A stretch of DNA of 64,000 nt, taken from an uncultured Candidatus Saccharibacteria bacterium. GTDB lineage: Bacteria; Patescibacteriota; Minisyncoccia; Phycocordibacterales; DATDWN01. A program made the translations under genes and the position numbers. Under the pieces are notes generated by a model that was not told the origin of the DNA, did not search any database, and was given only the letters and a program-made list of their open reading frames with translations. Each line of letters begins with the position of its first letter. The stretch's first letter is position 1. Below, one piece after another: positions 1,062-51,344 of this stretch. The stretch lies in NCBI GenBank assembly GCA_964507615.1, contig CAZDPS010000001.1, positions 25,777-89,776 on the forward strand, in the 5' to 3' direction.

Positions 1062-3992
1062 TTATTTTATTTGTAAAAATTTCTTCACATTTTTAAAAGC
1101 TCTCTCATAAGCATTGTCATCTAAAAACCACCCCCCCTTCAAATTGCTATCAAATTTAAGTTTTGGACCTAAAACTGATCCTTTTACTTCCATCGAGCCG
1201 CTAGCTATCTCTTTTCCATTTAATAGAACTTTCATACCCATAGGGTCATTACTCAATCCTTGAATTATATATATTTTTCCACCTTCAAAATCAATTGCTG
1301 TAGGATTTTGACCAATCTGATCTACTTTTGCACTCTTTTCGAACGCCTCAGCAAAGGCCCCTCTGATATCTTTATATTTTGCACCATCTTGATACATGTC
1401 ATCCAAAACTAATATCTTGCTGTCCCCAAAAACCTTATCATGACCTATAATTTGATCTCCAATCTTTACAACCTTCCCTTCTCCTTGAGTCACAATGTCA
1501 ACCAAAGAACCCTTGTGCTCCACTTGGTGTATTAGATTTTCTGGACGAGACACATCAATCGTTGGTGTTACTTCTGGTTCACTTGGAATAGTTACATGTT
1601 CCATCGGAGCCGTCCTAGAATCCCAATCCGGTATCACTTTTGTTTGTATAACTTCTGCATCAACAGGAATATCTGCCAACTTTTCTGGTGTTGGAGCACT
1701 TGATGTGTTTGTATCCATCTCTGGAACCACTGCCTTAACGCTATCTCTCCCAAGACCTGACAAGGTTTCTTTTGTGCCATCTACACGCTCTATAATTAAT
1801 TTTCCATTACTATCTATTGATAGTTTCTCTCCTGCGTAGCCGATTGCGCTTTCATTAACGTCACCCGGTTTATACAAACCATATTCTTTTGCTATCTCTA
1901 CCGTAGGTTTGTCTATAATATTTGTTTTTATTTCTGGAGGAATATTGTCACCATACTGTTTTATGATGTTCGCTTTTAGATTATGAATGTCCTGCAAAAA
2001 CCCTTTCGGACTTAGCTCAACTGTCGCGGAAACAACAGTTGAAGTTTTTATTGATTCTGGAGTTATTATATTTTCAGGTTTATTGACTATCTCATGAATT
2101 AAACTATCTTGTTTATTTAAAACAGGTTCTGTAATGGATGAAGTAGTTGATTTTGACCTAACAACACCATCAAAAGAACCTGCTTTTGGCTTATTAACCG
2201 TCTCCATAGAACCAGTTGCACCTACTGTGCTACCAGAGGACAGCGCAGATTCTGCCAAACCCGCCAAAATACCGGCTCCAGCACCTGCTCCAACCATAAC
2301 CAAGGCTTTTTTTATCCTCTGACTATTTTTTCTTTTTACTTCTTCTTCTTTAGCCTTCATGTAATCGACCTCTCTTTCCTCAAAAGATTTTTCTAAATTT
2401 TCATAACCAGAAGCTGCCTCTTCCTTGGCTTCGGCATTTATCCTATCTGCTCTTTTGCCATATAGACTACCAGCAACACGAGAGCCAATTGCTCCACCTA
2501 AACCCCTACCCAAACGTGTTCCTGCATATAGAGCGCCAGCGCCAAGACCAGCAGTTAAGCCGACTCCTGTACCAATCAAAATTGGAGCCAAAGCCAAACG
2601 TGCACCAATAGGAATCTTTGACCAGACCTTGAGACCCTTGGTGGCAATTTCTTTTATTTTATTAACCTTATCACTTTCTACCGAAGACAGCTCCGCCATT
2701 TGACCTTGTAATAAATCCCACTCTCTTTCTGCTTGTTCTAGTAGTTTTATTTTGATCTGTCCAACCATCTCTCTCTCCTCTTCTGGAGTCATCGTTACCC
2801 CTCCACCCTCCTTTTCCTGTGCCTTAGATTCAAACGTATCAATAATTTCATCTTTCTTTGTTGCTTTTTCCTTAATGTACATTGCTAGTGCACCATCCAA
2901 ACTCCTTTGCGCCTCATCCAATTCCACCTCTGTTGGAGATTTCTCTTTTGAACGTCCAGACAAAATACCCCAAGAGAGCAAGCTCTGCAAAGAGCCTTTC
3001 ATTTTATTATATTTATTATTTTTTTTATTGAATTCTATTTTTGCACGAGCATAATTTTCTCTAGCAATATCTAAACTAGTTTTAACCGTCTCAATTTTTT
3101 CGACTACATCTGGAGCCAAATCACCCAATTCATATCTATTACCCACAGCATCCGCTTCAACCGAAGACGACAACTCTGTTGAAACATTTTCCTCCTTTTC
3201 TTTTTCGTTTATTAATTTTATGAGCAAAGCTTTTCTCTCAACATCTGTTATATTTTCTACACTATTTCTAGCTACTCCAAAATAACCTTCTTCAATGTCC
3301 TTCAGTATCTGGTCCTCATATTTCTTGTCTGGAGAATCTGCTAGTGGAATATTTGTGTTTTCTTCCTCTAAATCTCCTGTAGCTTCTCCGACAGACTGAA
3401 TAGTATCTTCAACTGCTATAGGCGGTTCACTATTTTTCTTAAGTCCTTCTGTATCTTGATGTTCCATCTCAATCATCTGCACCCCTTCAACGTCTTCCTC
3501 TGATGGAGGCCAAGCAAGATCACCAATATCCTGCTTTTTCTCTCCTTTATTCAAACCATTTAACAAATCAAAGGCTGTATTGTATTCCCGTTCAGTTATG
3601 TAATGTCGTGCATAATGATTATTAAGAGCTCTTATTATCGCATCTTTAGGCATACCTTCCATGCTGTGTAATAAAGATCTCTTTCTAGAATTTTCGGACA
3701 AACCGTTGATATAATCCACAAGACTCTTAGGTAATGGAAAAATCTCTTCACTTGCCTTACTACCTTCTATTGATTCTTTAACAACCGCTCCCCCTGATTC
3801 AGTGGTTATTATGGGTGCTGGATCAATACCTATTTCTGTAGGTTTTTTTATTTCAGAAAAATCATGTATACCAGAAAGAGGTTCTTGTTCTGATTTTGAC
3901 TCCACTTGTCCAGCTAAAAAATCTAGTGGATTTTTTGAGGGAGGATTTAGATGTAAATCTAGATCATCTATTCTTTCTGCAGGAGTTGCCAT
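1062..3992 (-). CDS. Large hypothetical membrane-associated protein (976 aa)
   Basis: Long uninterrupted ORF; acidic/coiled-coil-like N half; central Gly-zipper-like hydrophobic segments (IGARLALAPILIGTGVGLTAGLGAGALYAG; VMVGAGAGAGILAGLAE); no family recognised. Confidence 0.75.
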   Translation of the reverse strand: MATPAERIDDLDLHLNPPSKNPLDFLAGQVESKSEQEPLSGIHDFSEIKKPTEIGIDPAPIITTESGGAVVKESIEGSKASEEIFPLPKSLVDYINGLSENSRKRSLLHSMEGMPKDAIIRALNNHYARHYITEREYNTAFDLLNGLNKGEKKQDIGDLAWPPSEEDVEGVQMIEMEHQDTEGLKKNSEPPIAVEDTIQSVGEATGDLEEENTNIPLADSPDKKYEDQILKDIEEGYFGVARNSVENITDVERKALLIKLINEKEKEENVSTELSSSVEADAVGNRYELGDLAPDVVEKIETVKTSLDIARENYARAKIEFNKKNNKYNKMKGSLQSLLSWGILSGRSKEKSPTEVELDEAQRSLDGALAMYIKEKATKKDEIIDTFESKAQEKEGGGVTMTPEEEREMVGQIKIKLLEQAEREWDLLQGQMAELSSVESDKVNKIKEIATKGLKVWSKIPIGARLALAPILIGTGVGLTAGLGAGALYAGTRLGRGLGGAIGSRVAGSLYGKRADRINAEAKEEAASGYENLEKSFEEREVDYMKAKEEEVKRKNSQRIKKALVMVGAGAGAGILAGLAESALSSGSTVGATGSMETVNKPKAGSFDGVVRSKSTTSSITEPVLNKQDSLIHEIVNKPENIITPESIKTSTVVSATVELSPKGFLQDIHNLKANIIKQYGDNIPPEIKTNIIDKPTVEIAKEYGLYKPGDVNESAIGYAGEKLSIDSNGKLIIERVDGTKETLSGLGRDSVKAVVPEMDTNTSSAPTPEKLADIPVDAEVIQTKVIPDWDSRTAPMEHVTIPSEPEVTPTIDVSRPENLIHQVEHKGSLVDIVTQGEGKVVKIGDQIIGHDKVFGDSKILVLDDMYQDGAKYKDIRGAFAEAFEKSAKVDQIGQNPTAIDFEGGKIYIIQGLSNDPMGMKVLLNGKEIASGSMEVKGSVLGPKLKFDSNLKGGWFLDDNAYERAFKNVKKFLQIK

Positions 3993-14232: not shown

Positions 14233-14291
14233 TTTTCTATTATAACAAAAACAAATAAAATAACTCTATCTACATTTGCCTTATAAGAAAA

Positions 14292-14324
14292 AGGTGGTGG
14301 TTGCCCGAGAGCTAACCACCACCT
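14292..14324 (-). terminator. Intrinsic terminator of GC-rich island 2
   Basis: Perfect 11-bp stem aggtggtggtt/aaccaccacct followed on the minus strand by tttttctt. Confidence 0.75.
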
Positions 14325-14344
14325 ACCGACGTTCTTGTGGGAGG

Positions 14345-14560
14345 TCACCGACGACGAGCTGCTATCATCTTCCCCAAACCGTCGATCAGCTCGGCCAACG
14401 CTAAGCCCAAACCCACCAAGAACGCGAGCTCACCCGTGAGTGGAATGACTGTAGCATCCAGTACGGGAATACCAAGTAGGTCGATGGGCCAGGACAATAG
14501 TCCAATCCCAGCCAGAACCAGCACGGTCGGCAGTAGTAACCGGAACAGCAACTTGATCAT
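14345..14560 (-). CDS. Small hydrophobic protein (71 aa), GC-rich island 2
   Basis: MIKLLFRLLLPTVLVLAGIGLLSWP...GELAFLVGLGLALAELI...AARRR (two predicted TM helices); SD aaggagg 5 nt before ATG; own promoter TTGACT-17-TATAAT (14605-14577). Confidence 0.6.
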   Translation of the reverse strand: MIKLLFRLLLPTVLVLAGIGLLSWPIDLLGIPVLDATVIPLTGELAFLVGLGLALAELIDGLGKMIAARRR

Positions 14561-14576
14561 GTGACCTCCTTTTATT

Positions 14577-18037: not shown

Positions 18038-18063
18038 AGATATAATTGTACCACAGCAGTTTC

Positions 18064-18149
18064 TATACGAAAAAACCCGATACAGAGAATCTGTATCGAG
18101 TGTGCAGGTAGGGCGCACCGAAGCGCCCTACCTTGAATGTGCTACCTGC
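18064..18149 (-). terminator. Tandem-hairpin terminator module of island 3 (shared with island 4)
   Basis: Hairpins aggtagggcgc/gcgccctacct (18106-18133) and cgatacag/ctgtatcg (18078-18098) followed by tttttt on the minus strand; first 41 nt identical to 24663-24703. Confidence 0.75.
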
Positions 18150-18160
18150 CCGCTCAGGAA

Positions 18161-18850
18161 CTAGCAGGCGGGCTTGCTTGCGACTTCTTCCGTCGCGAAG
18201 GCGGCTGGGGTCAGTTGCGGGAGAACGAAGCGACGCCCGTAGCCACCGTACCAGACGTAGGCGTCGGACAGCCGGCGAGCTTGGACGTCAAGGCCATCAG
18301 GGTGGACGCTCACGCCCGCAACGAAGAACCCGTTGCCCTCCTTCAGGAGAAAGAAGGTCCCGTAGCCGTCTTTGCGGAGCCAGCCCCGATGAGTCTCCAC
18401 GAAGGAGATCACTTGGTCCTGGGTCAGGACCAACTTGTCTAGATCTGCGCCGAGACTGTTGTAGATGTCGGTGAAGTCGCCATCGCGAACGAGCTCATGG
18501 ACTTCGACGTCCGTGTCGGGAGTTGCCACCCCCTCCACATCCAAGCCGTAGTTCACGAAGTCGCGGTCGATGTAACCCCGAAACACCTTGTCGACCTTGG
18601 CGATCGTTCGCTGGCCGGAGCATTCGGAGATGGTGAGCTTCGTCCCACCCAAGATGAGGCGGAGGTAGGGTTGAATTGTGAAGATCGGCTTTGGCTTCGG
18701 CACAATGTCCGCCTCGCCATCGAGGTAGGTCTTGACCATCCGAAGACGACCACCTTGACCGAGCAGGGTCACCTGTGACGGAGTGAACCCGTCTTCCTCT
18801 AGGCGATCCGACAACCACTTCATTTGATCGATTGTGTAGAGTGAGGACAT
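18161..18850 (-). CDS. Hypothetical protein (229 aa), GC-rich island 3
   Basis: Only frame with normal amino-acid composition in the GC-rich block; start taken at MSSLYTIDQMKW; C-terminus AYVWYGGYGRRFVLPQ resembles the island 4 protein. Confidence 0.65.
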   Translation of the reverse strand: MSSLYTIDQMKWLSDRLEEDGFTPSQVTLLGQGGRLRMVKTYLDGEADIVPKPKPIFTIQPYLRLILGGTKLTISECSGQRTIAKVDKVFRGYIDRDFVNYGLDVEGVATPDTDVEVHELVRDGDFTDIYNSLGADLDKLVLTQDQVISFVETHRGWLRKDGYGTFFLLKEGNGFFVAGVSVHPDGLDVQARRLSDAYVWYGGYGRRFVLPQLTPAAFATEEVASKPAC

Positions 18851-18981
18851 CGTCCTACCCTTTCTGGCACATCGTGCCAATGCTGGCCCAGCCCATGCTT
18901 TGCCACAGCAGAGAAAGCCCTGTTTTAGGACACTTTCTGTTGTGGCAAATGCAAGTAGTATTTTAAAGAACTATTTCCAGA

Positions 18982-24591: not shown

Positions 24592-24662
24592 TTTTAATTG
24601 CTTCCGTAGTCCCTGTAATCAAACATCTTTTCCATAGTGACACCTGTGTAAAGTTAAAAATT

Positions 24663-24746
24663 TATACGAAAAAACCCGATACAGAGAATCTGTATCGAGT
24701 GTGTAGGTAGGGTGCCGAGGCACCCTACCTTGAATGTGCTACTTGC
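24663..24746 (-). terminator. Tandem-hairpin terminator module of island 4 (shared with island 3)
   Basis: Hairpins aggtagggtgc/gcaccctacct (24705-24730) and cgatacag/ctgtatcg (24677-24697) plus T-tract; C-G to T-A compensatory change relative to island 3. Confidence 0.75.
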
Positions 24747-25161
24747 GAACGCCGAGGAACCGACAGCCGCCACCCCAGCCAACGTCCCACCAGCTGAGGC
24801 CGAGGTCCCGCCGGGAGACGACCCTGTCGAGGTACGCCACGCGACGGTAGCCGGGGACCTCGCACGAAGAGCCGAGAGCGACGATTGGGAACTGCCTCTG
24901 GACATCGGGATTCTTGGCCCCGAAGGAGAGTAGCTCGTGGATCGTTGCTGAGCGGTATCCGAGCTTGTCCATCTCCAGGACTGCGTTGTCGGACGAGATG
25001 AACTTGTTGAAGTGGATGAGCTCTGCACTCACCACAGTCTCGCGGGTTCCCGTCTTGGGAAAGTTCACCTCGGTGATGCTGGGGTTGACCCAGTCGTAGG
25101 CGCCGGCCTTGATCATATCGACCAACGACAGAGCGAAATTCACAACAAATTCATACACCAT
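24739..25161 (-). CDS. Hypothetical protein (140 aa), GC-rich island 4
   Basis: SD aggaga 7 nt before ATG; normal composition, unlike overlapping frames; C-terminus WDVGWGGGCRFLGVRK. Confidence 0.65.
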   Translation of the reverse strand: MVYEFVVNFALSLVDMIKAGAYDWVNPSITEVNFPKTGTRETVVSAELIHFNKFISSDNAVLEMDKLGYRSATIHELLSFGAKNPDVQRQFPIVALGSSCEVPGYRRVAYLDRVVSRRDLGLSWWDVGWGGGCRFLGVRK

Positions 25162-25217
25162 GGTGTATCTCCTGGGGCCATTAGGCCGAAAGTGGCTGTC
25201 AAACCGTTCTGAATACT

Positions 25218-25336: not shown

Positions 25337-25493
25337 CTCGTTGAAGTCGTATCTTTTGAAAGCCTCCACAACCCTCCAGCATGGTTCAGTCAATGACCCT
25401 GAGCATAGCGAAGGGCTCTTGACGGATGGAGGGTGAGGACAAGCCAGCCCATTCGCAGGAATGGGCTGGGAAGCTTTCAAAAGATATGACGAG
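25337..25493 (+). repeat. Family C structured repeat, copy C1
   Basis: P1 ctcgt(tgaag)cgtatcttttgaaagc/gctttcaaaagatatgacgag; conserved core agcatggttcagtcaatgaccctgagcatagcgaagggctcttgacgg; second copy at 38554-38728. Confidence 0.7.
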
Positions 25494-27976: not shown

Positions 27977-27999
27977 CAAGAAAGAAGGAGGTTGTGAGG

Positions 28000-28212
28000 A
28001 TGGAAACCATCTGTGAGACTTCAGGACATCTGTCAGGGTCAACGGTCAGAGAACACCACCCGACATGCACGTGCAAGACCTGCCTGTGCCCGTGTTTCAA
28101 ACACCGAGAAGAGTTAGCAGAAAGACAGGAGAACCACAGACTTGAGCTCGAGCGAATGTACCGCGACCGCACTCGGGGTCGTCGCGACTATTCCGGTCCG
28201 ATTACAGACTAG
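28000..28212 (+). CDS. Cys/His-rich small protein (70 aa), GC-rich island 5
   Basis: METICETSGH...HHPTCTCKTCLCPCFKH... then charged helix; SD aggagg 8 nt before ATG; hairpin acggccgttccg/cgggacggccgt downstream. Confidence 0.6.
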   Translation: METICETSGHLSGSTVREHHPTCTCKTCLCPCFKHREELAERQENHRLELERMYRDRTRGRRDYSGPITD

Positions 28213-28284
28213 AGCTGAAACGTGCAGTTCTTCTAAATTCCTACGGCCGTTCCGATCTTCGGGACGGCCGTAAAATTTTAATGT

Positions 28285-36199: not shown

Positions 36200-36232
36200 T
36201 TTTGGGCTGGGGAGCCCGGGAACTGGGAGGAA

Positions 36233-36505
36233 CTAGACGGCGATCCCCGCCCTGGCGAAGGCGGTGGCCAGGGTGTTGAACCCCCTGCCACGGACCGTCC
36301 GTGCGAGATGTTCGCGGTGCTCGGCGTACGCCTTGTCCAGATCGGACTTGGCGCGCTCGGCCATCTCGCGAGCGATCTGCTCGGCAGTCGGCTTGCGACA
36401 GCCGACGCCATGCAGGTGAACGCGCTCGCTCCCGCCCGGAGTGGGCTGCGAGCTGGCGTACGTGGTGAACTGACCACACTGGGCGCACCGGATGTGCTTG
36501 GTCAT
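36233..36505 (-). CDS. Small protein (90 aa) with N-terminal CxxC, GC-rich island 6
   Basis: MTKHIRCAQCGQFTTY...GVGCRKPTAEQIAREMAERAKSDL...; SD aggagg 6 nt before ATG; Ala/Arg-rich, high-GC codon usage. Confidence 0.6.
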   Translation of the reverse strand: MTKHIRCAQCGQFTTYASSQPTPGGSERVHLHGVGCRKPTAEQIAREMAERAKSDLDKAYAEHREHLARTVRGRGFNTLATAFARAGIAV

Positions 36506-36565
36506 GGGGACCTCCTATGGCCGTAGTTAGCCATTCCTTTGGCATCACTCGACCTTCCTGTGTAT

Positions 36566-38553: not shown

Positions 38554-38728
38554 ACAGAATTTCGTTGAAGTCGTATCTTTTTCAGAGCATCCACAGGCCT
38601 TGAGCATGGTTTCGTCAATGACCCGAGCTAAGCGAGGGCTCTTGACGAATCAAGGCCGAGGACTAGAACGAACTTTTCGCTGGAAAAGTGAGTGTATCTG
38701 AAAAAGATACGACGAAAAAGAAATTCTG
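38554..38728 (+). repeat. Family C structured repeat, copy C2
   Basis: Same P1 with tgaag bulge and the same core as C1; P2 ggccttga/tcaaggcc replaces C1 ccctcc/ggaggg. Confidence 0.7.
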
Positions 38729-48888: not shown

Positions 48889-49005
48889 GGGTGAATTATA
48901 TCACAAACCGTGTCGCAAAATAATTGAACCACTTAAAACGGCCGGGAATTGCCATCACAAAAGGCTCTTGCAAAGGCCTGTCTTTTGTGATATCCTGTGG
49001 GAACA

Positions 49006-49272
49006 ATGCTTACAAAGACAAAAAAATCAAAAATTGTTAAAGATGTTCAAGTGCACGCCACAGACACTGGTTCTCCAGAGGTACAAATTGCTATTTTGAC
49101 TAAAAGAATAGATGATCTGGCTTCTCACCTAAAGAAAAACACAAAAGATAACCATTCAAGACGTGGGCTACTACAAATGGTTGCTGATAGAAAATCCCAG
49201 ATGAAATATCTTGAGAAAAAATCTCCTAAAAGATATAACGCTTTAGTTAAGAAAGTTGGTTTGAAAAAATAG
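49006..49272 (+). CDS. rpsO: 30S ribosomal protein S15
   Basis: MLTKTKKSKIVKDVQVHATDTGSPEVQIAILTKRIDDLASHLKKNTKDNHSRRGLL... Confidence 0.9.
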   Translation: MLTKTKKSKIVKDVQVHATDTGSPEVQIAILTKRIDDLASHLKKNTKDNHSRRGLLQMVADRKSQMKYLEKKSPKRYNALVKKVGLKK

Positions 49273-49357: not shown

Positions 49358-49897
49358 ATGTCAGTAATTAAACACAAAAACCAGCGCGTTGGTATTTTTA
49401 TAGATACACAAAACCTATACCACTGTGCAAAAAATATATACGGGGCAAAAGTAAATTTTGATCAGGTAGTAAAAGATGGTCTTGCGGGAAGACAGTTAAT
49501 ACGTGCTGTAGCTTATGTAATCACAACAGAAGCAGGTGATGAAAAGAGCTTTTTTGAGGCTCTGGAAAAAATTGGAATAGAAACAAAAACAAAAAATTTA
49601 CAGATATTTTCAGGAGGAGCTAAAAAGGGAGATTGGGATGTTGGCCTTGCGGTAGACGCCATTAAACTCGCTCCAAAACTGGATGCTGTTATTCTGGTAA
49701 CTGGTGACGGAGATTTTGTTCCTCTTGTAGAATATCTACAAGTAAATGAGGGGTGTCAAGTGGAAGTGATGTCTTTCGGAAAAGCATCTTCGGCAAAATT
49801 AATAGAAACCAGTGATGATTTTATAGACCTAGATCTGAACCCACGAAAATATCTGATAGGATTTGGTACAAACAAACGAAATCGCAGGGCTATGTAA
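49358..49897 (+). CDS. NYN-domain (LabA/DUF88-like) protein
   Basis: RVGIFIDTQNLYH...VILVTGDGDFVPLVEYLQ. Confidence 0.8.
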   Translation: MSVIKHKNQRVGIFIDTQNLYHCAKNIYGAKVNFDQVVKDGLAGRQLIRAVAYVITTEAGDEKSFFEALEKIGIETKTKNLQIFSGGAKKGDWDVGLAVDAIKLAPKLDAVILVTGDGDFVPLVEYLQVNEGCQVEVMSFGKASSAKLIETSDDFIDLDLNPRKYLIGFGTNKRNRRAM

Positions 49898-49939
49898 TAA
49901 ACAGAGAACTTGACCTAATATACTACTAGGTATACATTT

Positions 49940-50066
49940 AAGTAGCCACTAGGCATGTCGCCTGGTGGCTATCGTCGGGAAAGCGGCTGGCAACCACTCC
50001 GAGGGTGGTGTTGGAGAGCTCGACAGCCCTTTTCAACACCACCCGCAGGGGTCAAGTTCTTTTTTA
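49940..50066 (+). ncRNA. Candidate GC-rich sRNA of about 125 nt (unclassified), island 7
   Basis: TTGACC-17-TACATT at 49910-49938; hairpins tagccactagg/cctggtggcta (49943-49971) and gggtggtgtt/aacaccaccc (50003-50044); ends in T6; no ORF. Confidence 0.45.
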
Positions 50067-50087
50067 TACTTCTGCATTTTTATGCGC

Positions 50088-50122
50088 AGTCGGTACCTAC
50101 ATGGTAACCGACTTTTTTCGTA
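50088..50122 (+). terminator. Intrinsic terminator
   Basis: agtcggtacc/ggtaaccgact stem followed by tttttt. Confidence 0.65.
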
Positions 50123-50177
50123 TATCTGAACACTAAATTTCTATTATTATAGAAATATCTGATATAATATCTACAAA

Positions 50178-51062
50178 ATGGAACCTCAAAAACAAAATTT
50201 AGAAGGACCTTCACACAACCCTGGCGTTCAGATAAAAAATCTCCGCACATATCAAGGTGACGTTGAAGAAGCTATTGCAAAAAATCACTTCACAACATCC
50301 ACAATTCTTATTGCTGAACAAAAAAGAAAAGCTCAGAACGAAACCTCTAATCCAGAGACAGCAATAAATTCTGGAGCCAGAAATAAATTTTTTATTTTAA
50401 CCGGTGCTCTTTTCCTCATACTGGGAATCGCCACTGTAAGTGTGGTTTTTTATCTAAAATCTAGAAACACAGCCGTGGTAGTACAGAACACCAAAGCCCT
50501 GATGGGTTTCTCGGAAGAAAAAATTATCCCAATATCTGATTTAAATAGAGAAAAATTTATAAATGACATTCTGTCAGAAAAACTGTCCGCCAATCTACAA
50601 GTAAACTCTGTACTATATATAAACACCACAGACACCAGAGATGAACCTGAAGATCTAGAAAACGTTCTGTTGATTTTAGCACCAAACATGCCCCCTTCTC
50701 TATCTAGATCTTTTGACAAAGAATATATGTTGGGAATTTATTCGTTTGGCAGCAACGAGCCATTCATCATTCTAACAACTAGTGATTTTGCGAACAGTTA
50801 CAGTGGAATGCTTAAGTGGGAAAAAGATATGGTGTTGGATTTGGGCAAAATTTTCTCTATACCACAATACGTAGGTTCTTCTACTCCAGAATTCAAAGAT
50901 GAAGCCATGAAAAACAAAGACCTCCGAGTACTAAAAAGTAGTGACAAAAAAACCGTACTATTATACTCATTTATAGACAAGAACACTTTAGTTATAACCA
51001 CCAACGGGGACATTTTGAACGCAATCATTGGAAAATACAGCATTAGCAAACAAATAAGATAA
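50178..51062 (+). CDS. Hypothetical single-pass membrane protein (294 aa)
   Basis: TM FFILTGALFLILGIATVSVVFYL about 80 aa from the N-terminus; no family recognised. Confidence 0.6.
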   Translation: MEPQKQNLEGPSHNPGVQIKNLRTYQGDVEEAIAKNHFTTSTILIAEQKRKAQNETSNPETAINSGARNKFFILTGALFLILGIATVSVVFYLKSRNTAVVVQNTKALMGFSEEKIIPISDLNREKFINDILSEKLSANLQVNSVLYINTTDTRDEPEDLENVLLILAPNMPPSLSRSFDKEYMLGIYSFGSNEPFIILTTSDFANSYSGMLKWEKDMVLDLGKIFSIPQYVGSSTPEFKDEAMKNKDLRVLKSSDKKTVLLYSFIDKNTLVITTNGDILNAIIGKYSISKQIR

Positions 51063-51344
51063 ACCTAGACACCAATTCAGGTATGGTTTTTATTCTTTTT
51101 TTGGTGTTTCATATAAACTTAACTTATGGCTACAATACTGGTGTAATAATTTGTCTACCTTTCAAGACAGAATGATGCTATATATATTTGGTGTGCGAGT
51201 AAATTTGCGTAGGTATTTTTTTCTGCTACAATACGGATATGAATCCCGTTAGAGGTTTCAGTCTATCCTTACCTCAAGGGAAAATGAACGTATTTATCAT
51301 TAACTTTTGTATCGTAGCTAAAAGCTACTGGTACCTCTAATGGG

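What the first reader, a model, noticed from the sequence alone, without database searches (positions are those of the whole stretch)
49905..50066. Island 7: GC-rich ORF-free RNA nested inside the loop of a terminator-like hairpin
Seen: an 11-bp perfect stem, agaacttgacc (49905-49915) with ggtcaagttct (50050-60), followed by T6, encloses a GC-rich insert of about 135 nt. It begins 8 nt after the NYN-gene stop.

The left arm also supplies a TTGACC -35 box with a TACATT -10 box 17 nt downstream. The insert folds into two strong hairpins of 11 and 10 bp. A second, ordinary terminator follows at 50088-50122.

Inference: either an sRNA gene, or a cassette that targeted the loop of the NYN gene's terminator. 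If terminator loops are the target, that would hint at how the GC islands insert.
Basis: partly seen in the sequence, partly recalled or inferred. Interest (0 to 1): 0.6.

Follow-up and report, generated by a model that had tools for sequence, protein, structure and literature searches.

The report
Small structured RNA gene after NYN
Just after a ribonuclease-like (NYN) gene of a Parcubacteria genome lies a GC-rich, non-coding RNA gene of about 120-180 nt with its own predicted promoter and two terminators. It belongs to a small RNA family absent from Rfam that close relatives have kept, duplicated or deleted, and nothing shows it was inserted into a terminator loop.

Summary
An 11-bp perfect inverted repeat (49905-49915 / 50050-50060) encloses 134 GC-rich, ORF-free bases. 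A T-run and a second terminator follow.

It is a structured small-RNA gene. Five closely related lineages carry an orthologous copy. The RNA body is 88% identical, against 35% for the promoter spacer and 58-69% for third codon positions. Five base pairs show compensatory changes. One-base indels rule out a conserved ORF. TTGAC/TAnnnT boxes are kept at a constant 17-nt spacing.

A covariance model finds diverged homologues at the same NYN-downstream site in four more genomes, two of them with tandem copies. It finds none in about 150 other NYN loci. Rfam has no match.

The cassette-in-a-terminator-loop idea is not supported. Empty sites contain no hairpin, and a neighbour-gene tree shows they are secondary deletions that also removed the second terminator. 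The left arm is the RNA's own -35 box. The right arm is also the 3' strand of the RNA's internal terminator hairpin.

The likely architecture resembles a 3'-UTR-type sRNA that shares its terminators with the NYN mRNA. Function and transcription are untested.

The parts
49358..49897 (+). NYN-domain (LabA/DUF88-like, predicted RNase fold) gene. Its 3' end directly abuts the RNA gene, with no terminator of its own.
   Evidence: Pfam PF01936, E = 9e-35. 85-97% identical across Parcubacteria.
49905..49915 (+). Left arm of the 11-bp long-range stem. It overlaps the -35 box of the RNA promoter.
   Evidence: In 6 lineages: 98.5% of cells paired, one compensatory pair, one wobble change in two lineages, one break.
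49910..49938 (+). Predicted sigma-70-type promoter: TTGACC, 17 nt, TACATT. Predicted start near 49945.
   Evidence: Between W and L171 the hexamers are kept (5/6, 4/6) while the 17-nt spacer is 6/17 identical at constant length. Equivalent boxes lie upstream of 7 of 8 family units (read by eye).
49943..49971 (+). P1, the 5' hairpin (12 bp, loop AUGUC).
   Evidence: Three pairs change on both sides between W and the L171 group.
49972..49991 (+). Linker, largely unpaired. Variable, with a 6-nt indel in relatives; GCUGGCA is conserved.
   Evidence: Alignment A4; 10/23 identical W vs L171.
49992..50058 (+). Core extended hairpin: Pa' (49992-94/50056-58), Pa (49996-50000/50048-52), a purine internal loop (GA / GCA) and Pb (50003-18/50029-44). 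It ends 1 nt before the T-run.
   Evidence: 60/68 identical W vs L171. The motif YUCYGARGGG...CCC-GA-CAGRR-(A)AGUUCUUU is shared with L084B, L096B, L004 and L095.
50050..50060 (+). Right arm of the long-range stem. The same bases are the 3' strands of Pa and Pa', so the two pairings exclude each other.
50060..50065 (+). T-run of the first terminator-like site (T1).
   Evidence: T6-T7 conserved in the W clade.
50073..50086 (+). P3, a small hairpin (UGCAU/AUGCG). It aligns with GUGAC-UUCG-GUCAC of L004 and L096B.
50088..50118 (+). T2, a canonical intrinsic terminator (stem 50088-50113, T6 50113-50118, tail CGTATA).
   Evidence: z = -4.6. 29/33 identical W vs L171. Also conserved in L084B.
50160..50168 (+). 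Extended -10 (TGATATAAT) of the downstream 294-aa membrane-protein gene (ATG at 50178). It lies outside the RNA module and is retained in empty-site relatives.

Best explanation
Island 7 is a gene for a structured, non-coding small RNA on the + strand. It belongs to a family absent from Rfam that lives in the spacer between the NYN gene and the next gene (a 294-aa membrane protein) in a subclade of Zambryskibacteria-like Parcubacteria.

Shown:
- The RNA body is conserved far above neutral expectation.
- It keeps its helices (P1, Pa'/Pa/Pb, P3, T2) through compensatory changes.
- It has no conserved ORF.
- It has diverged homologues at the same site in other genomes, sometimes as two tandem units.
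- It has been deleted cleanly in several lineages.

Inferred:
- Transcription starts near 49945 from TTGACC-17-TACATT, which lies 13 nt after the NYN stop.
- The RNA ends either at T1 (the extended Pa'/Pa/Pb hairpin plus U6, about 120 nt) or at the stronger T2 (about 175 nt).
- NYN has no terminator of its own here. NYN transcripts must therefore run into the RNA gene and share T1/T2. This is the layout of a 3'-UTR-type sRNA with an internal promoter.
- Only in those read-through transcripts is the left arm present. There it can replace Pa/Pa' and close an 11-bp stem right before the U-run, terminating or capping the NYN mRNA.
- The mature RNA probably acts in trans, by base-pairing or as a protein-binding RNA through the conserved purine internal loop and the AAGUUCUUU tail. 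The target is unknown.
For: No Rfam match at gathering or at E <= 10.

Orthologues lie in L171-L178, L180/181 and L183-186.

Identity by region, W vs L171: promoter spacer 6/17, core hairpin 60/68, T2 29/33. Third codon positions of the flanking genes are 58% and 69% identical.

Structure counts on 6 lineages: 95% of cells paired against 35-51% when partners are slid. Five pairs change on both sides; 1 of 500 shuffles reached this.

The RNA alone (49945-50066) folds at -60.7 kcal/mol, z = -5.05. Four G-U pairs on the + strand would be A-C mismatches on the - strand.

1-nt indels between near-identical strains (L171 vs L175; W vs L171) exclude a conserved reading frame.

Model R1 matches full-length at the same position and strand in L004 (4e-7), L084 unit A (3e-6), L084 unit B (2e-5), L096 (6e-5) and L095 (1e-3). 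It finds nothing at E <= 0.01 in about 150 other NYN loci or in 793 kb of unrelated viral DNA. The core-only model R2 recovers the same set.

TTGAC-type -35 and TAnnnT -10 boxes at 16-17 nt lie upstream of 7 of 8 units.

The downstream gene keeps its own extended -10 whether or not the RNA is present.
Against: There is no direct evidence of transcription. The only 'RNA-Seq'-labelled run that holds the sequence (X7) is kept as contigs. Its depth is flat and low across all genes, and one contig (49956-50206) crosses T2 into the next gene, so it may be DNA.

Promoter-like matches are no more frequent in this region than in shuffles, so the promoter rests on comparative evidence only.

Covariation comes from six closely related sequences, effectively three or four lineages, so the counts are small.

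E-values of the distant homologues are rough (short calibration). Their alignments are imperfect outside the core.

No trans target was found: the only good complement of the tail in the 64-kb window is the left arm itself.

One lineage (L183) breaks a central pair of the long-range stem.
Confidence: 0.7

Rival explanations
1. The element is not an independent gene. It is a structured 3'-UTR of the NYN mRNA. The 11-bp closing stem plus U-run would be the NYN terminator, with the GC-rich domain acting as a 3' stabiliser against exonucleases or as a processing site. The TTGACC/TACATT boxes would be fortuitous.
For: NYN has no other terminator. The closing stem is kept in the W clade, with one compensatory pair (C-G to U-A) and one C-to-U change giving G-U. 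With the arms included the fold is very stable.
Against: In L084 unit B, L096 unit B and L013 the homologous or analogous unit follows a complete terminator, so it must have its own promoter. The hexamers are conserved while the spacer between them has diverged. The stem is absent outside the W clade and broken in L183. The extended internal hairpin Pa'/Pa/Pb already abuts the U-run without the left arm. This reading is compatible with the best explanation as a second role.
Confidence: 0.18
2. The element is a mobile GC-rich cassette or MITE bounded by 11-bp terminal inverted repeats that inserted into the loop of a pre-existing NYN terminator.
For: Perfect 11-bp inverted repeat. Presence/absence polymorphism among close relatives. 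The NYN terminator of L013 (CAACTTGC-GT-GCAAGTTG-T6) resembles the two arms.
Against: Empty sites have no hairpin, and the missing block runs past the repeat to include P3, T2 and about 40 more bases. The tree shows the empties are losses within an RNA-bearing clade. No target-site duplication is visible. There is a single copy in the 64-kb window, and no copy in any other context in about 180 loci or the viral sample. In L084 the left-arm sequence is present with only a partial, interrupted complement (6 + 2 bp) in unit B and functions as a -35 box. Other relatives' NYN terminators are unrelated in sequence, so the L013 resemblance (a 6-mer) may be chance.
Confidence: 0.04
3. The element is a cis-regulatory leader (riboswitch or attenuator) of the downstream membrane-protein gene, with T1/T2 as the expression platform.
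For: A multi-helix GC-rich domain followed by terminators lies upstream of a gene on the same strand.
Against: The downstream gene has its own extended -10 (TGATATAAT, 50160-68) after T2, about 10 nt before its ATG. The same promoter sits directly after NYN in genomes that lack the RNA. T2 is a constitutive-looking terminator with no alternative pairing to the domain. The RNA is dispensable in many relatives that keep the gene.
Confidence: 0.04
4. The element encodes a small protein, for example the 50-aa ORF at 49955-50107.
For: ORFs of 34-54 aa exist in the GC-rich stretch. Other GC islands of this window do encode small proteins.
Against: There is no Shine-Dalgarno sequence. Three 1-nt indels and a 6-nt indel among close relatives shift every frame. 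The substitution pattern is compensatory in helices, not codon-like.
Confidence: 0.01

Closest known systems
3'-UTR-type sRNAs with an internal promoter that share the terminator of the upstream mRNA (the 'type I' 3'-UTR sRNAs of enterobacteria such as DapZ or MicL; from my own knowledge of the literature, not tested here)
   Same: The predicted promoter lies in the 3' end region of the upstream gene's transcript (13 nt after the NYN stop). There is no terminator between gene and sRNA. The RNA ends at a Rho-independent terminator that must also serve the mRNA.
   Different: The organism is a Parcubacteria (no Hfq or ProQ partner is established there). There are two successive terminators. The -35 box is itself complementary to the RNA's 3' strand. 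No target is known. There is no sequence or Rfam relationship.
Classical intrinsic (Rho-independent) terminator
   Same: A GC-rich helix is followed directly by a U-run, at T1 (via Pa'/Pa/Pb or via the 11-bp long-range stem) and at T2.
   Different: The long-range version has a 134-nt structured 'loop', far beyond normal terminator loops. The helix adjacent to the U-run is AU-rich.
GC-rich intergenic structured ncRNA candidates found in AT-rich genomes (GC-IGR approach; PMC11109978, PMC8723152)
   Same: The signature is the same one that flagged this region: a long, GC-rich, ORF-free spacer in an AT-rich genome with conserved helices.
   Different: None of the curated motifs matches (Rfam 15). 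The paper checked does not mention NYN or Parcubacteria.
MITE-like inverted-repeat elements
   Same: A short element flanked by a perfect 11-bp inverted repeat, polymorphic among relatives.
   Different: No target duplication and no other copies. The deletion boundaries do not coincide with the repeats. One arm is a promoter box and the other is part of a conserved RNA helix.
SraG, an sRNA encoded between rpsO and pnp in E. coli (recalled from memory; a lead only)
   Same: A small RNA gene inside the rpsO...pnp neighbourhood. Here the order is rpsO-NYN-[RNA]-membrane gene-dksA-like-pnp.
   Different: Different strand logic, no sequence similarity, different flanking genes. No evidence that this RNA acts on pnp.

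Membership tests
Any curated Rfam family (SRP, 6S, tmRNA, RNase P, riboswitches, known sRNAs) | Covariance-model score at or near the family's gathering threshold | tested here: not met
   Window at gathering: only 4 tRNAs elsewhere. 49700-50300 at E <= 10: best is 17.8 bits against a threshold of 80. Relatives' inserts: nothing relevant.
Independent bacterial sRNA gene | Own promoter upstream of the RNA | tested here: inconclusive
   TTGACC-17-TACATT is present. The hexamers are conserved and the spacer has diverged at constant length. Similar boxes lie before 7 of 8 units, including units that follow a terminator. There is no experimental start site.
Independent bacterial sRNA gene | Rho-independent terminator at the 3' end | tested here: met
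   T1 (extended hairpin plus U6) and T2 (50088-50118) are both conserved.
Independent bacterial sRNA gene | Conserved secondary structure with compensatory changes; non-coding | tested here: met
   (5 double changes, 95% of cells paired). Frame-breaking indels.
Independent bacterial sRNA gene | A discrete transcript detected | not testable with these tools
   Only one ambiguous 'RNA-Seq' metagenomic run, kept as contigs, with flat depth.
Intrinsic terminator of the NYN gene with an insert in its loop | Stem directly followed by a U-run | tested here: met
   11-bp stem ending at 50060 within T6.
Intrinsic terminator of the NYN gene with an insert in its loop | Relatives without the insert keep the same stem with a short loop | tested here: not met
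   L179, L182 and L088 have no hairpin. The empties are secondary deletions. L084 has the left-arm sequence with only a partial, interrupted complement (6 + 2 bp) about 360 nt away.
MITE / mobile inverted-repeat cassette | Terminal inverted repeats | tested here: met
   11-bp perfect repeat.
MITE / mobile inverted-repeat cassette | Target-site duplication, and empty sites that differ exactly by the element | tested here: not met
   No flanking direct repeat. The indel is about 236-250 nt and includes T2.
MITE / mobile inverted-repeat cassette | Multiple copies at unrelated loci | tested here: not met
   Unique in the window. Found only downstream of NYN in about 180 loci.
Riboswitch / 5' leader of the downstream gene | Lies in the 5' UTR of the regulated gene, with the terminator coupled to the aptamer | tested here: not met
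   A separate conserved promoter lies after T2, and the gene keeps it when the RNA is absent.

The most novel reading that the evidence does not exclude
The nested arrangement is functional coupling. The -35 box of the sRNA promoter doubles as the 5' arm of a terminator or capping helix for the upstream RNase-like NYN mRNA, and the 3' arm of that helix is the sRNA's own terminator strand. NYN read-through transcripts (left arm present, closing stem) and promoter-initiated sRNA (left arm absent, Pa/Pa' helix) would then adopt two exclusive folds of the same sequence. That would give two RNA species with different fates, possibly with the sRNA pairing in trans to the NYN 3' end. More broadly, these rapidly duplicating, fusing and vanishing promoter-RNA-terminator modules would show how ultra-small CPR genomes gain and lose regulatory RNAs.
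Probability: 0.15. Interest if true: 0.55.

Novelty: new member of a known kind. Interest (0 to 1): 0.4.

Why it matters
I found no description of regulatory RNAs in Parcubacteria/Patescibacteria in my two literature searches. These are ultra-small, mostly uncultured, host-dependent bacteria with streamlined genomes.

This locus offers a conserved, structured and evidently selected small RNA with a clear comparative history at one fixed site: orthologues, tandem duplicates, a probable fusion, and clean losses. It lies in a cluster of RNA-metabolism genes (S15, an NYN RNase-fold protein, a DksA-like protein, PNPase).

It is a concrete candidate for metatranscriptomic validation and for building a new RNA family. 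The finding also corrects a tempting but wrong idea about how the GC-rich islands of this genome arise.

Tried and rejected
- Known RNA families. Rfam at gathering and permissive thresholds, on the window and on relatives' inserts, gave nothing.
- Repeat within the window. BLAST of island 7 against the other GC islands and the whole window found it unique. The only shared string is the 12-mer TTTTTTCGTATA at the T2 tail, also present in the 3' modules of islands 18 and 24.
- Plain BLASTN of the element against 80 species-level relatives gave no hit. Homology beyond the closest clade appears only with covariance models.
- Trans-target search. Complements of the conserved tail occur in the window only at the left arm. 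An apparent match to the start of the downstream gene in L171 is not conserved in the window, so I dropped it (reading).
- Pseudoknot between linker GGCUG (49985-89) and Pb loop CAGCC (50024-28). It is possible, but both sides are invariant in the W clade and absent in distant members, so it is untestable.
- Expression. Two run searches and one read-laying gave only an ambiguous contig.
- Viral origin. Two 14-16-mer scans of viral contigs returned chance matches, and the model found no family member among them.
- Broader full-length model from the divergent alignment A3. I used a core-only model instead.
- The GC-rich inserts at the same site in L013, L006, L022, L018, L020, L005 and L034 were not detectably homologous. 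L006 is borderline at E = 0.07.

Full report
SETTING. The window has 38% GC. Its proteins match Parcubacteria/Zambryskibacteria metagenome-assembled genomes. The same sequence occurs in wastewater, soil and wetland metagenomes. Around the finding the + strand carries these genes:
- rpsO (48997-49272)
- an NYN/LabA-like gene (49358-49897)
- the GC-rich spacer
- a 294-aa membrane protein without Pfam match (50178-51062)
- a DksA-like gene
- pnp

THE OBSERVATION.
- The 11-bp perfect arms lie at 49905-15 and 50050-60, 134 nt apart.
- The T-run is 50060-65. It has six T including the last stem position.
- TTGACC-17-TACATT is present.
- There are two strong hairpins.
- A second terminator lies at 50088-50118.
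- The region folds far better than shuffles, z = -9.0.
- It has no credible ORF.

On its own an 11-bp inverted repeat with such a loop is not rare. About ten are expected by chance per 64 kb. The case therefore rests on comparison with relatives.

RELATIVES. The NYN protein is 72-97% identical across hundreds of Parcubacteria. I used it to collect about 160 loci. I then used the faster-evolving downstream protein to reach close relatives.

In about 54 loci NYN is followed by the membrane gene.
- About 40 have a spacer of only 4-104 AT-rich bases. These consist of the next gene's extended -10 promoter, in some loci preceded by a simple terminator hairpin.
- Eleven have long GC-rich spacers.

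Five close lineages carry a clearly orthologous 264-267-nt spacer: L171-178, L180/181, L183, L184 and L185/186.

SELECTION. Identity between the window and L171 varies sharply by region:
- promoter spacer: 6/17 identical, but exactly the same length
- -35 box: 5/6
- -10 box: 4/6
- core hairpin: 60/68
- second terminator: 29/33

Third codon positions of the flanking genes are only 58% and 69% identical. So the RNA body and its terminators are under purifying selection.

Structure counts on six lineages:
- 95% of cells form standard pairs, against 35-51% when partners are slid.
- Five pairs change on both sides: three in P1, one in Pb and one in the long-range stem.
- 1 of 500 column shuffles reached this number.

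One-base indels between near-identical strains exclude a conserved reading frame. G-U pairs, the promoter and the T-runs all point to the + strand.

ANATOMY (window coordinates):
- promoter 49910-38
- predicted start about 49945
- P1 49943-71
- variable linker 49972-91
- extended hairpin: Pa' (49992-94/50056-58), Pa (49996-50000/50048-52), a purine internal loop, and Pb (50003-18/50029-44)
- U6 at 50060-65 (T1)
- small hairpin P3 50073-86
- terminator T2 50088-50118

The RNA alone (49945-50066) folds at -60.7 kcal/mol, z = -5.05.

THE LONG-RANGE STEM. The right arm (50050-59) is made of the same bases as the 3' strands of Pa and Pa'. The left arm contains the -35 box. The big stem and the internal helices are therefore alternatives, and the left arm is absent from RNA started at the predicted promoter. 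The stem can form only in transcripts that enter from NYN.

Across lineages it shows:
- one compensatory change (C49915-G50050 becomes U-A);
- one C-to-U change giving G-U in two lineages;
- one break (L183).

The G50050-to-A change also improves Pa (U-G to U-A), so this evidence is shared with the internal fold. In the sister lineage L084 the sequence GAACTTGAC is present at the same place as a -35 box, with only a partial, interrupted complement (6 + 2 bp) about 360 nt away in unit B. I conclude that the stem is real and probably selected in the W clade. It is a derived feature layered on an sRNA gene, not the remnant of a split terminator.

FAMILY. A covariance model of the W-clade RNA (R1) matches full-length, on the same strand and at the same NYN-downstream position:

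| Locus | E-value |
|---|---|
| L004, a Zambryskibacteria MAG | 4e-7 |
| L084 unit A | 3e-6 |
| L084 unit B | 2e-5 |
| L096 | 6e-5 |
| L095 | 1e-3 |

R1 finds nothing at E <= 0.01 in about 150 other NYN loci or in 793 kb of unrelated viral DNA. A core-only model recovers the same set.

The shared signature is a 4-6-bp helix (ACUCC/GGGGU, CUCU/AGAG, ACUCUG/CAGGGU, UUCUG/CAGAA, CUCUG/CGGAG), a purine internal loop (GA/GCA, AA/GA, AA/AA), a long G-rich hairpin, the tail (A)AGUUCUUU, a small hairpin and a terminator. Seven of eight units are preceded by TTGAC[ACT] and a TAnnnT box at 16-17 nt, including second units that follow a full terminator.

L084 and L096 carry two tandem units. The window's unit resembles L084 unit A in its 5' two-thirds and unit B in its tail and terminator. 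A fusion by unequal recombination is plausible; this is an inference.

GAIN OR LOSS. A neighbour-joining tree of the downstream protein shows:
- L179 (empty site) nests inside the RNA-bearing clade, as sister of L180/L184.
- L182 (empty) is sister to that clade, with L084 (two units) outside.
- L092 (empty) is sister of L004 (RNA present).

The parsimonious reading is an ancestral RNA gene at this site that has been lost repeatedly. In L179 and L182 the deletion removed everything from a few bases after the NYN stop to just before the next gene's -10 box, leaving taa-AAATAAAAATCTCTGATATAAT.

MECHANISM (best guess). The layout is that of a 3'-UTR-type sRNA. The promoter lies 13 nt after the NYN stop. 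There is no intervening terminator. T1/T2 are shared by the sRNA and by NYN read-through transcripts. The left arm gives read-through transcripts an alternative closing helix at the U-run.

What the mature RNA does is unknown. The conserved internal loop and tail suggest a protein-binding or seed region. No target was found in the window. Transcription itself is unverified.

NOVELTY. There is no Rfam match. Two literature searches and one paper check found no description. It is a new family of an ordinary kind of element, of moderate interest, mostly because I found no description of regulatory RNAs in these organisms.

Noticed in passing
window 25345-25490 and 38565-38715: Two copies of another GC-rich structured element. 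Each is closed by a 14-17-bp AT-rich stem (GTCGTATCTTTT.../...AAAAGATAYGAC). They are about 82% identical over the aligned ~200 nt (BLAST: 84% over an 88-nt core), with compensatory helix changes (ACCCTCC/GGAGGGT vs GGCCTTG/CAAGGCC). No Rfam match.
   Followed up: partly
window 18060-18950 and 24655-25165 (- strand): Two GC-rich (65-74%) ORFs of about 230 and 140 aa without Pfam match. Each is followed by the same 82-nt two-hairpin 3' module (93% identical), which ends in TTTTTTCGTATA. The same 12-mer ends the island-7 terminator T2 (50113-50124).
   Followed up: partly
window 14290-14570 (-), 36230-36510 (-), 27999-28215 (+): Other GC islands are small ORFs: a 71-aa hydrophobic protein, a 90-aa protein and a 70-aa Cys-rich protein. 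Those at about 14.3 kb and 36.2 kb have AT-type TTGAC promoters and AGGAGG ribosome sites. So most 'GC islands' here are small accessory genes, unlike the non-coding island 7. There are no Pfam hits for the ORFs tested.
   Followed up: partly
L085 1659-2111 vs L084 1993-2111: Two otherwise near-identical genomes differ between xerC/D and rpsO. In L085 a ~370-nt GC-richer cassette (promoter, SD, 84-aa membrane protein, terminator, on the - strand) replaces 39 nt of L084. This is a direct example of a whole promoter-gene-terminator module coming or going in a spacer.
   Followed up: partly
window 51063-51344, especially 51239-51344; L021 3052-3214; L093 2558-2727: The spacer before the dksA-like gene is 283 nt here, against 37-42 nt in close relatives. 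Its last ~105 nt begin ATGAATCCCGTTAGAGG and end CCTCTAATGGG directly before the ATG (inverted ends). A similar element (ATGAATCCCGTAAGAG...CTCAAACGGG) sits directly before the membrane gene's ATG in L021 and L093, flanked by repeated ATGAATCC. This may be a small element that targets start-codon regions.
   Followed up: no
L005 3052-3222; L157/L161/L162 about 1780-2000 (-); L169 about 360-500: The insert at the NYN-downstream site of L005 is a different conserved long-hairpin RNA (core UCUUGCUAGA...GCUC...CCGUCG). It recurs near NYN in four other Parcubacteria, on either side and strand. No Rfam match.
   Followed up: partly
window 50140-50170: There is a tandem, imperfect duplication of the next gene's promoter region (AAATTTCTATTAT / AAATATCTGATAT, period about 18) at the right edge of the RNA module. 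It is also present in L171.
   Followed up: no
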